A DNA stretch of 3,398 nucleotides, taken from the sequence record JQ966308.1; one strand, written 5' to 3'. Source of the stretch: Escherichia phage MS2. Below are positions 1-3,398 of the stretch, one piece after another. Each line of letters begins with the position of its first letter. Within the stretch, counting starts at the first letter, position 1. The position numbers and the translations under genes were made by a program. The notes below the pieces were generated by a model. That model worked only from the letters and a program-made list of their open reading frames with translations, was not told the DNA's origin and ran no database searches.

Positions 1-4
1 ACTC

Positions 5-1186
5 ATGCGAGCTTTTAGTGTCCTTGATCAGGAGTCCGAGACCTTCGTCCCTAGCGTCCGCGTTTATGCGGACGGGCAGGTCGAAGATAACTCGTTTTCC
101 CTAAAATACCGCTCGAACTGGACTCCCGGTCGATTTAATTCGACCGGGTCTAGAACGGAACAGTGGCACTATCCGTCCCCTTATTCTAGGGGTGCGCTCA
201 GTGTCACATCGGTAGATCAAGGTGCCTACAAGCGCTCTGGGTCATCGTGGGGTCGCCCGTACGAGGAGAAAGCCGGTTTTGGCTTCTCACTCGACGCACG
301 TTCCTGCTATAGCCTCTTCCCTGTTAGTCAGAATCTGACTTACATCGAAGTGCCGCAGAACGTTGCGAACCGGGCGTCGACCGAAGTCCTGCAGAAGGTC
401 ACTCAAGGAAATTTCAACCTTGGTGTGGCCCTAGCAGAGGCCAGGTCGACAGCCTCACAACTCGCGACGCAAACCATTGCGCTCGTGAAGGCGTACACTG
501 CCGCTCGTCGCGGCAATTGGCGCCAGACGCTCCGCTATCTTGCCCTAAACGAAGATCGGAAGTTCCGATCGAAACACGTGGCAGGCAGGTGGTTGGAGTT
601 GCAGTTCGGCTGGCTACCGCTCATGAGCGATATCCAGGGCGCATATGAGATGCTTACGAAGGTTCACCTTCAAGAGTTTCTTCCTATGAGGGCCGTACGG
701 CAAGTGGGCACTAACATTAAGTTAGATGGCCGTTTGTCGTATCCAGCTGCAAACTACCAGACTACGTGCAACATATCACGACGAATCGTGATATGGTTTT
801 ACATAAACGATGCACGTTTGGCCTGGTTGTCGTCTCTAGGTATCTTGAACCCACTAGGTATAGTGTGGGAAAAGGTGCCTTTCTCATTCGTTGTCGACTG
901 GCTCCTTCCTGTTGGGAACATGCTCGAGGGCCTCACAGCCCCCGTAGGATGCTCCTACATGTCTGGAACAGTTACTGACGTAATAACGGGTGAGTCCATC
1001 ATAAGCGTCGACGCTCCCTATGGGTGGACGGTGGATAGACAGGGCACTGCTAAGGCCCAAGTCTCAGCCATGCATCGAGGGGTGCAATCCGTATGGCCAA
1101 CAACTGGCGTATACGTGAAGTCACCTTTCTCGATGGTCCATACCTTAGACGCGTTGGCATTAATCAGGCAACGGCTCTTAAGATAG
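5..1186 (+). CDS. mat: Maturation (A / assembly) protein of an MS2-like ssRNA phage, 393 aa; pilus-binding attachment protein present at one copy per virion
   Basis: Full-length ORF from ATG at 5-7 to TAG at 1184-1186. The translation (MRAFS...LDARSCYSLFPVSQNLTYIEVPQNVANRAS...IRQRLLR) matches my recollection of the MS2 A protein over nearly its whole length and is the same size (393 aa). It is the first gene, as in all leviviruses. Confidence 0.93.
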   Translation: MRAFSVLDQESETFVPSVRVYADGQVEDNSFSLKYRSNWTPGRFNSTGSRTEQWHYPSPYSRGALSVTSVDQGAYKRSGSSWGRPYEEKAGFGFSLDARSCYSLFPVSQNLTYIEVPQNVANRASTEVLQKVTQGNFNLGVALAEARSTASQLATQTIALVKAYTAARRGNWRQTLRYLALNEDRKFRSKHVAGRWLELQFGWLPLMSDIQGAYEMLTKVHLQEFLPMRAVRQVGTNIKLDGRLSYPAANYQTTCNISRRIVIWFYINDARLAWLSSLGILNPLGIVWEKVPFSFVVDWLLPVGNMLEGLTAPVGCSYMSGTVTDVITGESIISVDAPYGWTVDRQGTAKAQVSAMHRGVQSVWPTTGVYVKSPFSMVHTLDALALIRQRLLR

Positions 1187-1197
1187 AGCCCTCAACC

Positions 1198-1217
1198 GGA
1201 GTTCGAAGCATGGCTTC
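1198..1217 (+). promoter_or_regulatory. Coat gene ribosome-binding region: Shine-Dalgarno GGAG plus a small initiator hairpin presenting the AUG in its loop
   Basis: GGAG at 1198-1201 lies 8 nt upstream of ATG 1210. GAAGC (1205-1209) and GCTTC (1213-1217) are perfectly complementary and flank the ATG, as in the known MS2 coat initiation hairpin. Confidence 0.7.
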
Positions 1218-1602
1218 TAACTTTACTCAGTTCGTTCTCGTCGACAATGGCGGAACTGGCGACGTGACTGTCGCTCCAAGCAACTTCGCTAACGGGGTCG
1301 CTGAATGGATTAGCTCTAACTCACGTTCTCAGGCTTACAAAGTAACCTGTAGCGTTCGTCAGAGCTCTGCGCAGAACCGCAAGTACACCATTAAGGTTGA
1401 GGTACCAAAAGTGGCTACCCAAACCGTCGGTGGTGTACAGCTTCCTGTAGCCGCATGGCGTTCGTACTTGAATATGGAATTAACTATTCCTATTTTCGCA
1501 ACGAACGACGATTGCGCGCTTATTGTTAAGGCGATGCAAGGTCTCCTAAAAGATGGAAACCCGATCCCCTCAGCAATCGCAGCAAACTCCGGAATCTACT
1601 AA
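1210..1602 (+). CDS. cp: Major coat (capsid) protein, 130 aa including the initiator Met; also the translational repressor of the replicase gene
   Basis: ATG at 1210-1212 lies inside the longer tabulated ORF 1093..1602. The translation MASNFTQFVLVDNGGTGDVTVAPSNFANGVAEWISSNSRSQAYKVTCSVRQSS... is the MS2 coat sequence apart from about three substitutions (Q at codon 1438-1440, D at 1507-1509, A at 1516-1518). GGAG at 1198-1201 is a plausible Shine-Dalgarno. The ORF ends with tandem stops TAA TAG (1600-1605). Confidence 0.96.
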   Translation: MASNFTQFVLVDNGGTGDVTVAPSNFANGVAEWISSNSRSQAYKVTCSVRQSSAQNRKYTIKVEVPKVATQTVGGVQLPVAAWRSYLNMELTIPIFATNDDCALIVKAMQGLLKDGNPIPSAIAANSGIY

Positions 1603-1780
1603 TAGATTCCGTCCATTCCAACATGAGGATTACCCATGTCGAAGACAACAAAGAAGTTCAACTCTTTATGTATTGATCTTCCTCGCGATCTTTCTCTCGA
1701 AATTTACCAATCAATTGCTTCTGTCGCTACTGGAAGCGGTGATCCGCACAGTAGAGACTTTACAGCAATTGCTTACCTAA
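1553..1780 (+). CDS. lys: Lysis protein L, 75 aa single-gene lysis protein (Sgl) with a basic N-terminal region and a hydrophobic C-terminal membrane domain
   Basis: ORF from ATG 1553 to TAA 1778-1780 in the +1 frame relative to coat and replicase. It overlaps the coat 3' end by 50 nt and the replicase 5' end by 145 nt. The translation METRSPQQSQQTPESTNRFRPFQHEDYPCRRQQRSSTLYVLIFLAIFLSKFTNQLLLSLLEAVIRTVETLQQLLT is nearly identical to my recollection of MS2 L, with the same length and position. Confidence 0.92.
   Translation: METRSPQQSQQTPESTNRFRPFQHEDYPCRRQQRSSTLYVLIFLAIFLSKFTNQLLLSLLEAVIRTVETLQQLLT
1600..1605 (+). terminator. Tandem in-frame translational stop codons (UAA UAG) ending the coat gene
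   Basis: TAA at 1600-1602 is followed immediately by TAG at 1603-1605 in the coat frame, the same arrangement as in MS2. Confidence 0.85.
1621..1639 (+). promoter_or_regulatory. Translational operator (TR) hairpin: coat-protein binding site that represses replicase translation and nucleates packaging
   Basis: ACATGAGGATTACCCATGT folds as stem 1621-1625/1635-1639 plus 1627-1628/1633-1634, with a bulged A at 1626 and a 4-nt loop ATTA at 1629-1632. The replicase ATG (1636-1638) is in the 3' arm and the GAGGA Shine-Dalgarno (1625-1629) in the 5' arm. The sequence is identical to the MS2 operator as I recall it. Confidence 0.93.
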
Positions 1781-3273
1781 GAGATGAGTTGCTTACTAAG
1801 CATCCATCATTGGGCAATGGTAATGACGAGGCGACCCGCCGGGCTCTAGCTATTGCTAAGCTCCGGGAGGCGAATGAGCGATGTGGCCAGATTAATAGAG
1901 AAGGTTTCTTACATGACAAATCCTTGTCATGGGATCCGGATGTTTTACAAACCAGCATCCGTAGCCTTATTGGCAACCTCCTCTCTGGCTATCGTTCGTC
2001 GTTGTTTGGGCAATGCACGTTCTCCAACGGTGCCTCGATGGGGCACAAGTTGCAGGATGCAGCGCCTTACAAGAAGTTCGCTGAACAAGCAACCGTTACC
2101 CCCCGCGCTCTGAGAGCGGCTCTACTGGTCCGAGACCAGTGTGCGCCGTGGATCAGACACGCGGTCCACTACAGCGAGTCATATGAATTTAGGCTCGTCG
2201 TAGGGAACGGAGTGTTCACAGTTCCGAAGAATAATAAAATAGATCGGGCTGCCTGTAAGGAGCCAGATGCGAACATGTACCTTCAGAAAGGGGTTGGTGG
2301 CTTCATACGCCGCCGCCTCCGTTCTATCGGTATCGACCTGAATGATCAAACGATCAATCAACGTCTTGCAAAACTCGGCAGTATCGATGGTTCTTTAGCG
2401 ACGATAGATTTATCGTCTGCTTCTGACTCCATATCGGACCGCCTTGTTTGGGAGTTTCTCCCACCGCAAATGTATGCGTACCTGTCTAAAATTCGTTCGC
2501 CACGAGGAATCGTTGACGGACGTATGATCGACTGGCACCTATTTTCCACTATGGGTAATGGATTTACCTTTGAACTAGAGTCCATGATCTTTTGGGCAAT
2601 AGTTAAGGCAACCATGACTCATTTTGGTAACCTTGGAACAATTGGCATCTATGGGGACGATATCATATGTCCCACAGAGATTGCACCTCGTGTGCTAGAG
2701 GCTCTCAGCTTCTACGGTTTTAAACCGAATCAGTCGAAGACGTTCATCACGGGTCGCTTTCGCGAGTCCTGTGGTGCACATTACTTCGGCGGTGCTGATT
2801 GCAAACCGATTTATATCAAGAAACCCGTTAACAACCTCTTCGCCGTCTGTCTGTTACTTAACAGACTGCGCGGCTGGGGTGTTGTGAACGGTGTGTCAGA
2901 TCCTCGCCTCTTCGAGACTTGGAAATGGCTATCCGAACGTGTTCCCTCGATACTTTTCGGTGGGTCAAACCTTGATGCAGACTATTACGTGGTCAGCCGC
3001 CAGGAAGCCAGGAAGCGTTGCGAGGATCATCCAGTATATGGACGTACCCTTGCTCATTTCCACAGCTCTCCTCATCGGTTGTACCGCGTACCCGCCTCTA
3101 AACGCGAATTTTCTTCGCGCGAAGAGTCCGGTCGCCTCATCACTTGGTACCATAATGGCGGTCAAATTATTGACACCACTACGACCCCAAGGGTTCGCCT
3201 TGTGCGAACATCGGAATGGCTAGCGGTAGTGCCATCCTTCCCTCAGGAAGATGACACACGCGAGCTCTCCTAG
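1636..3273 (+). CDS. rep: RNA-dependent RNA polymerase (replicase beta subunit), 545 aa
   Basis: ORF from ATG 1636 to TAG 3271-3273. The N-terminus MSKTTKKFNSLCIDLPRDLSLEIYQSIASVATGSGDPH... matches the MS2 replicase. RdRp motifs are present: motif A TIDLSSASDSISD (2401-2439), motif B MGNGFTFELES (2551-2583) and motif C YGDD (2650-2661). It has the same length as the MS2 replicase, but the C-terminal roughly 120 aa are noticeably diverged. Confidence 0.96.
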   Translation: MSKTTKKFNSLCIDLPRDLSLEIYQSIASVATGSGDPHSRDFTAIAYLRDELLTKHPSLGNGNDEATRRALAIAKLREANERCGQINREGFLHDKSLSWDPDVLQTSIRSLIGNLLSGYRSSLFGQCTFSNGASMGHKLQDAAPYKKFAEQATVTPRALRAALLVRDQCAPWIRHAVHYSESYEFRLVVGNGVFTVPKNNKIDRAACKEPDANMYLQKGVGGFIRRRLRSIGIDLNDQTINQRLAKLGSIDGSLATIDLSSASDSISDRLVWEFLPPQMYAYLSKIRSPRGIVDGRMIDWHLFSTMGNGFTFELESMIFWAIVKATMTHFGNLGTIGIYGDDIICPTEIAPRVLEALSFYGFKPNQSKTFITGRFRESCGAHYFGGADCKPIYIKKPVNNLFAVCLLLNRLRGWGVVNGVSDPRLFETWKWLSERVPSILFGGSNLDADYYVVSRQEARKRCEDHPVYGRTLAHFHSSPHRLYRVPASKREFSSREESGRLITWYHNGGQIIDTTTTPRVRLVRTSEWLAVVPSFPQEDDTRELS

Positions 3274-3398
3274 TCAGCACGGCTAGGGACCCCCGTAATC
3301 GGGGTGGGTGCCGCGAAAGCGGCTATTCATCGTAACAACGATGGATAGGAGTAACCTCCTAATTCGGTGACTAACTTTGCTTGGCTAGTCACCACCCA
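3274..3398 (+). other. 3' untranslated region of the phage genome, 125 nt, with a series of short hairpins and the levivirus 3' terminus ...ACCACCCA
   Basis: Perfect small stem-loops are visible: 3291-3295/3300-3304 (CCCCG/CGGGG, loop TAAT), 3310-3314/3319-3323 (GCCGC/GCGGC, GAAA tetraloop), 3328-3332/3339-3343 (CATCG/CGATG), and 3347-3351/3356-3360 (AGGAG/CTCCT, loop TAAC). The window ends in CCCA. Confidence 0.85.
3366..3398 (+). promoter_or_regulatory. 3'-terminal hairpin plus single-stranded ACCCA tail; likely the replicase initiation site for minus-strand synthesis
   Basis: GGTGACTA (3366-3373) pairs perfectly with TAGTCACC (3386-3393), an 8-bp stem with a 12-nt loop, followed by unpaired ACCCA (3394-3398). 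Levivirus genomes end in CCCA with a terminal hairpin immediately upstream. Confidence 0.75.

What the first reader, a model, noticed from the sequence alone, without database searches (positions are those of the whole stretch)
1621..1639. Operator hairpin is fully conserved despite coat-protein substitutions
The 19-nt TR hairpin is exactly the MS2 operator, including the bulged A (1626) and the AUUA loop. The coat protein of this phage should therefore bind the same RNA, act as the replicase translational repressor and work with standard MS2 hairpin tagging. Such perfect conservation inside a diverging replicase gene shows strong dual constraint on this segment from coding and RNA structure.
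Basis: partly seen in the sequence, partly recalled or inferred. Interest (0 to 1): 0.45.

Follow-up and report, generated by a model that had tools for sequence, protein, structure and literature searches.

The report
Standard MS2 replicase operator hairpin
This is the textbook RNA hairpin that the coat protein of phage MS2 binds to switch off replicase synthesis, found unchanged in an already published environmental MS2 isolate (DL54), so it is real but ordinary.

Summary
Positions 1621-1639 are exactly ACAUGAGGAUUACCCAUGU, with the bulged A at 1626, the AUUA loop at 1629-1632 and the replicase AUG at 1636-1638 paired in the stem. The site hits Rfam RF02359 (MS2 operator hairpin) at 59.6 bits (threshold 40) and folds this way in every context from 19 to 1201 nt.

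The window is MS2 isolate DL54 (JQ966308; replicase AFN39800.1), a published recombinant. Its coat differs from reference MS2 only at E76Q, S99D and E102A. All 13 RNA-contact positions are unchanged, so binding and repression are very likely, though untested.

The evolutionary argument is weak:
- Only 4 of the 19 nt lie in the replicase ORF. All 19 lie in the lysis ORF.
- The window differs from isolate DL16 at only 2 sites before 1785, so coat and operator were inherited together. Replicase divergence starts at 1785.
- 23.5% of all 19-nt windows are identical to MS2 (44.5% in the coat-to-lysis region).
- The hairpin is the 5' end of a 64-nt invariant run.

Real evidence for structural constraint comes from the wider genus: two stem pairs with compensatory changes, and invariant lysis-synonymous sites. 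Forty MS2 records, nearly all from lab-passaged lines, carry point mutations inside the hairpin.

Verdict: already known, low interest.

The parts
1621..1639 (+). Translational operator (TR) hairpin of the replicase cistron. Pairs are 1621-1639, 1622-1638, 1623-1637, 1624-1636, 1625-1635, 1627-1634 and 1628-1633, with bulged A1626 (-10) and loop A1629 U1630 U1631 A1632 (-7 to -4).
   Evidence: Exact MS2 19-mer. Fold confirmed. Rfam RF02359 at 59.6 bits.
1625..1629 (+). GAGGA, the probable Shine-Dalgarno element of the replicase cistron, lying in the 5' arm, bulge and upper stem of the hairpin, 7 nt upstream of the AUG.
   Evidence: Read from the sequence. Its role is inferred from established knowledge of the MS2 replicase ribosome-binding site.
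1636..1638 (+). Replicase start codon AUG (+1 to +3), paired with U1624, A1623 and C1622 in the lower stem.
   Evidence: ORF 1636-3273. Pfam RNA_replicase_B, E = 2e-199. Pairing.
1613..1618 (+). 3' strand (CCAUUC) of the long-range Min Jou interaction, immediately 5' of the operator.
   Evidence: Pairs with 1303-1308 at probability 0.93-0.99, and is in the MFE structure in 551-1201 nt contexts. Role taken from PMC5007439 and PMC11979748.
1303..1308 (+). 5' strand (GAAUGG) of the Min Jou interaction, inside the coat gene. It couples replicase translation to coat-gene translation.
   Evidence: Literature.
1210..1602 (+). Coat protein gene (130 codons), encoding the repressor that binds the operator. 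It carries E76Q, S99D and E102A relative to reference MS2 and is identical to the DL16 coat.
   Evidence: Pfam Levi_coat, E = 1e-67.
1553..1780 (+). Lysis protein L gene (75 codons). It overlaps the 3' end of the coat gene, the whole operator (codons Q23-C29) and the replicase 5' end.
   Evidence: Pfam Phage_MS2_lysis, E = 1e-38, matching residues 22-75. Codon table.
1636..3273 (+). Replicase beta-subunit gene (545 codons). It diverges from MS2-like isolates only from 1785 onward, most strongly from about 2256.
   Evidence: The exact protein is AFN39800.1.
1..1784 (+). Block identical to isolate DL52 and differing from isolate DL16 at only two sites (1494, 1684). It carries the maturation gene, coat gene, operator and lysis gene together.

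Best explanation
Positions 1621-1639 are the canonical MS2/R17 translational operator (TR) of an Emesvirus zinderi genome, isolate DL54.

Early in infection, ribosomes translating the coat gene open the Min Jou long-range pairing (1303-1308 with 1613-1618). The weak hairpin (-5.3 kcal/mol) then lets ribosomes reach the GAGGA and AUG of the replicase. As coat protein accumulates, a coat dimer binds the hairpin through A-10 (1626), A-7 (1629), U-5 (1631) and A-4 (1632). This locks the Shine-Dalgarno element and the start codon in the stem and represses replicase translation. The same complex serves as a high-affinity nucleation and packaging site.

Shown here: sequence, fold, Rfam membership, gene context, intact coat contact residues, and structure conservation across the genus. 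Inferred from the literature and not tested here: actual binding, repression and packaging by this isolate's coat protein.

The identity to MS2 has a mundane origin. Coat gene and operator sit in one 1784-nt block that is nearly identical to isolate DL16, and the divergent replicase 3' part was joined on by recombination downstream of the lysis stop codon.
For: - Exact 19-mer; none expected by chance.
- Canonical fold in all contexts from 19 to 1201 nt, with pair probabilities of 0.88-1.00.
- RF02359 at 59.6 bits against a threshold of 40, E = 8.6e-13.
- Levivirus gene order and Pfam families for all four ORFs.
- 96.8% identity to MS2 isolate DL52. The exact replicase protein is AFN39800.1, on a 3398-nt contig. 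This matches DL54 as described in PMC3499819.
- All 13 coat contact positions are identical to MS2. The three substitutions fall in the FG loop (E76) and at the base or start of helix A (S99, E102), which are mutable and away from the beta-sheet RNA face (PMC5895741; PMC7467689; PMC12356212). Q76, D99 and A102 each occur in other genus members, and fr has D99 and A102.
- Across the genus the architecture is kept while the sequence changes. There is G-C to A-U at -11/-1 (GA type), G-C to U-A at -8/-3 (L029) and A-U to G-U at -13/+2 (AVE017). 95.9% of cells are paired, against 71% or less when partners are slid, and 2 pairs show changes on both sides.
- In 13 MS2-like genomes the hairpin has 0/19 variable sites, against 5/18 immediately upstream (p = 0.02) and 24% genome-wide (p = 0.012). 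All 7 positions that are third codon positions in the lysis frame are invariant.
- The mechanism is described in PMC5007439, PMC7467689, PMC10610835 and PMC12803234.
Against: - No binding or repression experiment exists for this coat variant.
- The hairpin is not more conserved than its 3' flank (0/19 vs 9/141, p = 0.60), so part of the invariance could come from overlapping coding.
- The covariation sample is small: 7 distinct sequences, with 22/500 shuffles reaching the observed values.
- Thermodynamic stability in the 61-nt context is unremarkable, z = -1.38.
- Hairpin point mutants (U-5A, U+4C, U-6C) reach appreciable frequency in passaged MS2 lines. The exact sequence is therefore not indispensable for viability.
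Confidence: 0.93

Rival explanations
1. The invariance of the 19 nt is caused mainly by overlapping translation signals and coding: the lysis frame Q23-C29, the Shine-Dalgarno element, the AUG and replicase codon 2. Under this reading the coat-RNA interaction and the stem structure add little constraint.
For: - The hairpin is the 5' end of a 64-nt invariant run (1620-1683), followed by another 50-nt invariant run, all within the lysis/replicase overlap.
- Hairpin vs downstream overlap is 0/19 vs 9/141 variable sites, p = 0.60.
- The Pfam lysis-protein model starts matching at residue 22, just before the hairpin codons.
- L K23E and R20W are reported to reduce lysis expression (PMC11979748).
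Against: - 15 of the 19 nt are outside the replicase ORF.
- The lysis codons just upstream tolerate non-synonymous change. Positions 1607, 1608 and 1619 are first or second codon positions and vary.
- All 7 lysis-frame third positions in the hairpin are invariant in 13 MS2-like genomes. Lysis third positions do vary elsewhere (1609, 1612, 1684, 1735 and others).
- Stem changes across the genus are compensatory.
- The single change in fr is at loop position -6. From my own knowledge of the R17/MS2 operator literature, that is the position the coat protein does not read.
Confidence: 0.08
2. For this genome, the identity to MS2 says nothing about selection. It reflects recent common descent and co-inheritance of coat and operator in one recombination block.
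For: - The window is identical to DL52 and differs from DL16 at only 2 sites across 1-1784.
- 23.5% of all 19-nt windows are identical between the window and MS2, rising to 44.5% in 1210-1780.
- 8.9% of 19-nt windows are invariant across all 13 MS2-like genomes.
Against: This fully explains the pairwise identity but not the wider pattern. With fr included, the hairpin has 1/19 variable sites against 36% genome-wide. The hairpin architecture also persists in relatives whose coats are only 55-75% identical, with compensatory pair changes.
Confidence: 0.3
3. In this isolate the hairpin acts chiefly as the capsid-assembly and packaging nucleation site, and replicase repression is a minor by-product.
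For: - TR is described as a strong encapsidation site, and many operator-like stem-loops serve as packaging signals (PMC10610835).
- The deletion of nt 1764 (the +4 U of this hairpin) raises coat affinity (Kd 48 vs 137) and gives a packaging advantage (PMC7442481).
Against: The replicase start codon and the GAGGA element are inside the stem, which is the arrangement that makes binding repressive. Repression is the documented function (PMC7467689, PMC5007439). The two roles are not mutually exclusive.
Confidence: 0.07

Closest known systems
MS2/R17 replicase translational operator (TR; Rfam RF02359)
   Same: Identical 19-nt sequence, fold, bulged A-10 and AUUA loop. The position spans the replicase AUG in the coat-replicase intercistronic region. 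The cognate coat protein has identical RNA-contact residues.
   Different: Nothing differs in the element itself. The upstream flank differs from reference MS2 at five sites (1607, 1608, 1609, 1612, 1619). C1619 shortens the Min Jou helix from 7 to 6 bp, and the coat carries E76Q, S99D and E102A.
Phage fr operator
   Same: Same stem, bulge and position. The fr coat shares D99 and A102 with the window.
   Different: fr has A instead of U at -6, giving an AAUA loop.
Group II (GA/KU1, Emesvirus japonicum) operator
   Same: Same architecture: 5 bp, bulged A, 2 bp, 4-nt loop, with the AUG in the 3' arm.
   Different: The sequence is ACAUAAGGAAAACCUAUGU, with an A-U pair at -11/-1 and an AAAA loop (A at -5). 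The coat has S87 instead of N87. It scores only 18-23 bits on RF02359, below threshold.
Qbeta and PP7 coat-operator pairs
   Same: Same logic: a coat dimer binds a hairpin containing the replicase start (PMC7467689).
   Different: They have different hairpin geometry and recognition rules and were not compared by sequence here. The window does not resemble them.

Membership tests
MS2 operator hairpin (Rfam RF02359 / TR) | Covariance-model score above the curated gathering threshold | tested here: met
   59.6 bits against 40, E = 8.6e-13, full model 1-36, at 1604-1639
MS2 operator hairpin (Rfam RF02359 / TR) | 7-bp stem interrupted by a single bulged A (-10), two pairs below a 4-nt loop | tested here: met
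   (((((.((....))))))) is the MFE and centroid structure; A1626 is bulged
MS2 operator hairpin (Rfam RF02359 / TR) | Loop A-N-Y-A: A at -7 and -4, pyrimidine at -5 | tested here: met
   A1629, U1630, U1631, A1632. The rule itself comes from my knowledge of the Uhlenbeck-laboratory operator studies; contacts are partly cited from PMC12803234
MS2 operator hairpin (Rfam RF02359 / TR) | Replicase start codon in the 3' arm and ribosome-binding purines in the 5' arm | tested here: met
   AUG 1636-1638 is paired with 1622-1624; GAGGA lies at 1625-1629; ORF 1636-3273 is RNA_replicase_B
MS2 operator hairpin (Rfam RF02359 / TR) | Levivirus genome context: between coat and replicase genes, inside the lysis ORF | tested here: met
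   mat 5-1186, coat 1210-1602, lysis 1553-1780, replicase 1636-3273; all four Pfam families found
MS2 operator hairpin (Rfam RF02359 / TR) | Cognate coat protein with an intact RNA-binding site | tested here: met
   V29, K43, T45, S47, R49, N55, K57, T59, K61, E63, Y85, N87 and E89 are identical to MS2. The closest solved structures are MS2 coat-RNA complexes such as 1ZDI and 1ZDH
MS2 operator hairpin (Rfam RF02359 / TR) | Coat dimer binds the hairpin and represses replicase translation | not testable with these tools
   This needs filter-binding or EMSA and an in vivo repression assay with the Q76/D99/A102 coat
Emesvirus zinderi (MS2-like, genogroup I, JS subgroup) | Genome-wide nucleotide similarity and gene coordinates of MS2-like isolates | tested here: met
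   96.8% to DL52 and 85-90% to the other MS2-like isolates. The exact replicase is AFN39800.1 on a 3398-nt contig. Matches DL54 in PMC3499819

The most novel reading that the evidence does not exclude
The coat-operator-lysis module (1-1784) may be exchanged as one co-adapted cassette by natural recombination among MS2-like phages. The window's divergence from DL16 starts at 1785, five nucleotides after the lysis stop codon. Its sister isolate DL52 stays identical to DL16 until about 2255. That implies at least two separate template-switch events involving the same 5' donor, and possibly a preferred breakpoint at the module boundary. The evidence equally allows a laboratory chimera or contamination among isolates DL16, DL52 and DL54, which were sequenced in the same laboratory.
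Probability: 0.15. Interest if true: 0.35.

Novelty: already known. Interest (0 to 1): 0.07.

Why it matters
It matters little beyond annotation. The element is one of the best-characterised RNA-protein switches in biology, and the genome is a published one.

What is useful is the correction. A 19-nt identity between close relatives cannot be read as evidence of constraint, and the overlapping frame here is the lysis gene, not the replicase. The real evidence for constraint comes from compensatory stem changes across the genus and from invariant lysis-synonymous sites.

A practical consequence is that the DL54/DL16 coat variant (Q76, D99, A102) should be interchangeable with MS2 coat for hairpin-tagging, but that still needs a binding assay.

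Tried and rejected
The single-sequence model had mean pLDDT 53 and was not used. Placement of residues 76, 99 and 102 rests on the literature instead.
- The primary structural papers (PMC147404, PMC117284, PMC21323, PMC147100) and Betancourt 2009 (PMC2666518) are not held. The full contact-residue list and the A-N-Y-A rule therefore partly rest on my own knowledge.
- JP501 could not be fetched under AF227251, but JP501 record AH009279 carries the wild-type 45-mer.
- The whole-genome partition function timed out, so contexts up to 1201 nt were used instead.
- The permissive Rfam search found no other RNA family in the window.
- Thermodynamic z-score as evidence was rejected: z = -1.38 in 61 nt is not significant. 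The hairpin is weak, as expected for a site ribosomes must open.
- 'Categorically conserved' was rejected after finding U-5A, U+4C and U-6C variants in 40 MS2 records.
- The paper describing DL54 never mentions the operator or the hairpin.

Full report
**What the window is.** The 3398-nt window has the gene order of a levivirus: maturation 5-1186, coat 1210-1602, lysis 1553-1780 and replicase 1636-3273. Each ORF hits its Pfam family: Phage_mat-A, Levi_coat, Phage_MS2_lysis and RNA_replicase_B. Its best match is MS2 isolate DL52 (JQ966307), at 96.8% over the full length. All other MS2-like records stop aligning under megablast near position 3000. The replicase protein is exactly AFN39800.1, on a 3398-nt contig. 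Together with the 3398-nt 'nearly full-length' entry and the 96.73% similarity to DL52 reported in Friedman et al. 2012 (PMC3499819), this identifies the window as isolate DL54 (JQ966308), a published 'JS' recombinant. That paper never mentions the operator.

ACATGAGGATTACCCATGT occurs once, at 1621-1639, and nothing within 3 mismatches appeared in 200 shuffles. It folds as (((((.((....))))))), with A1626 bulged, the loop at 1629-1632 and the AUG at 1636-1638 paired. All seven pairs are in the MFE structure, at probabilities of 0.88-1.00, in contexts from 41 to 1201 nt. Rfam RF02359 'Bacteriophage MS2 operator hairpin' matches 1604-1639 at 59.6 bits (gathering 40), E = 8.6e-13. The neighbouring Min Jou long-range pairing (1303-1308 with 1613-1618) is also predicted at p >= 0.93. 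The hairpin itself is weak: -5.3 kcal/mol, with z only -1.38 in a 61-nt context. That fits a site ribosomes must be able to open.

**The coat protein.** Relative to reference MS2, the coat has E76Q, S99D and E102A. It is 100% identical to the coat of isolate DL16.
- All 13 positions I take as the RNA-binding site are unchanged: V29, K43, T45, S47, R49, N55, K57, T59, K61, E63, Y85, N87 and E89. Thr45, Ser47 and Tyr85 are cited from PMC12803234; the rest come from my knowledge of Valegard 1994/1997 and Peabody 1993.
- E76 is in the FG loop, described as the most mutable region, where mutations affect assembly rather than repression. [quoted passage not shown] The RNA surface is the beta-sheet (PMC5895741; PMC12356212; PMC7467689).
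- Across 19 coat sequences from the genus, Q76, D99 and A102 are common. D99 occurs in nearly every coat that is not identical to the MS2 reference coat, and fr has D99 and A102.

Binding and repression by this coat are therefore very likely, but they are inferred, not shown.

1. Only AUGU (1636-1639) lies in the replicase ORF. Positions 1621-1635 are intercistronic with respect to coat and replicase. All 19 nt lie in the lysis frame, as codons Q23-C29.
2. The replicase is not diverging here. Region 1636-1780 is 97-100% identical to all MS2-like isolates except M12 (95.2%; 86.9% for fr). The window is identical to DL52 and differs from DL16 at two sites (1494, 1684) across 1-1784. The first difference from DL52 is at 1785. 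Coat and operator were inherited together.
3. Pairwise identity is uninformative. 23.5% of all 19-nt windows are identical to MS2, and 44.5% in 1210-1780.
4. In 13 MS2-like genomes the hairpin is the 5' end of a 64-nt invariant run (1620-1683), the third longest in the genome. 8.9% of all 19-nt windows are invariant. The hairpin is not more conserved than the downstream lysis/replicase overlap (0/19 vs 9/141, p = 0.60).

**What does support a structural and binding constraint.**
- The 5' boundary is sharp. There are 5/18 variable sites in 1603-1620 against 0/19 in the hairpin (p = 0.02), and 0/19 against 24% genome-wide (p = 0.012).
- Three of the five variable upstream sites (1607, 1608, 1619) are first or second codon positions in the lysis frame, so lysis coding is a weak constraint there. 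All seven lysis third positions within the hairpin never vary.
- fr differs only at loop position -6.
- Relatives recovered from IMG/VR and metagenomes, with coats 55-75% identical, keep the architecture while the sequence changes. There is G-C to A-U at -11/-1 (GA type), G-C to U-A at -8/-3 (L029) and A-U to G-U at -13/+2 (AVE017), with loops AAUA, AAAA and AUAA.
- On 7 distinct sequences, 95.9% of cells pair, against 71% or less with slid partners. Two pairs change on both sides, with 22/500 shuffles reaching that. This is modest but consistent.
- Coat residue 87 tracks the loop. N87 goes with U at -5 (MS2, window, fr) and S87 mostly with A at -5. The sample is small and not phylogenetically independent.

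**The constraint is not absolute.** Of about 291 MS2 records, 241 carry the wild-type 45-mer 1620-1664.
- 27 records carry U-5A. These are 25 clones of passaged lines plus LC710217 and LC710218. LC710217 is a Japanese wastewater isolate 99.1% identical to reference MS2, with a wild-type coat. LC710218 was not examined further.
- 11 records carry U+4C.
- 2 records carry U-6C.

Published work on MS2 'cheaters' shows that deleting the same +4 U (nt 1764) raises coat affinity and packaging. The surrounding region of under 300 nt is described as information-rich and pleiotropic (PMC7442481 and PMC11979748).

**Mechanism.** The established model applies. Translation of the coat gene opens the Min Jou pairing and permits replicase initiation. 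Later, a coat dimer binds the hairpin, sequesters the Shine-Dalgarno element and the AUG, and nucleates assembly (PMC5007439, PMC7467689, PMC10610835). All the sequence-level prerequisites are present in this window. Binding and repression remain to be measured for this coat variant.

**Verdict.** This is a correct identification of an already known element in an already published genome, with an over-interpreted evolutionary argument. Interest is low.

Noticed in passing
window 1-1784, 1785-2255, 2256-3398 (vs L001 DL52 and L002 DL16): The genome is a three-part mosaic. In 1-1784 the window is identical to DL52 and differs from DL16 at 2 sites, although the three isolates came from RI, NC and NH. 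In 1785-2255, DL52 is identical to DL16, while the window differs by 3-8%, largely at third codon positions. From about 2256 both JS strains diverge from DL16 (53-86% identity). The two JS strains therefore have different 5' breakpoints. That implies either repeated recombination with one donor or a laboratory chimera. The paper reports a single recombination event.
   Followed up: partly
L033-L037 (FJ799566, FJ799633, FJ799682, FJ799690, FJ799712), L039 (LC710217); equivalent to window 1630, 1631, 1639: Laboratory-passaged MS2 clones carry point mutations inside the operator: U-5A in 27 records, U+4C in 11 and U-6C in 2. LC710217, a Japanese wastewater isolate, and LC710218 (not examined further) are among the U-5A records. 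The U-5A variant coexists with a wild-type coat protein.
   Followed up: partly
window 1619: The window has C where reference MS2 has A (MS2 nt 1744). This gives lysis K23Q and shortens the Min Jou helix from 7 to 6 bp. It is a natural A/C polymorphism shared with J20, fr and the Fr* phages. A1744G at the same site is a published 'cheater' mutation.
   Followed up: partly
L026 (OGVH01000181.1) about 1900-1920; L029 (Ga0255252_1001044) 1682-1700: Two divergent operator variants turned up in metagenomic relatives. L026 has a 20-nt hairpin, ACAUGAGUAAAAUACCAUGU, with a G-U/A-C upper stem and a different loop size. L029 has a GU/AC upper stem, an AUAA loop, and coat residues I85 and D87.
   Followed up: no
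L030 (OGVK01002762.1) downstream of 1528: A coat relative (62% identity over residues 1-98) has no canonical operator-like hairpin in the 250 nt after the end of the coat match.
   Followed up: no
window 3274-3398: The 3' UTR is 125 nt, against 171 nt in MS2, but ends in the levivirus terminal signature ACCACCCA. The replicase 3' end (3001-3150) is only about 53% identical to MS2-like isolates and has no closer match than DL52 in the phage collection. The donor of the 3' segment is therefore unknown.
   Followed up: partly
window 1-4: The record starts 4 nt before the maturation-protein AUG, so about 125 nt of 5' UTR are missing. The genome is incomplete at its 5' end.
   Followed up: yes
coat residues 99 and 102 (window 1507-1509, 1516-1518): S99 and E102 of the reference MS2 strain are the unusual states in the genus. 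D99 is present in nearly all relatives, and A or T at 102 is common. The 'substitutions' in the window may therefore be the ancestral residues.
   Followed up: partly
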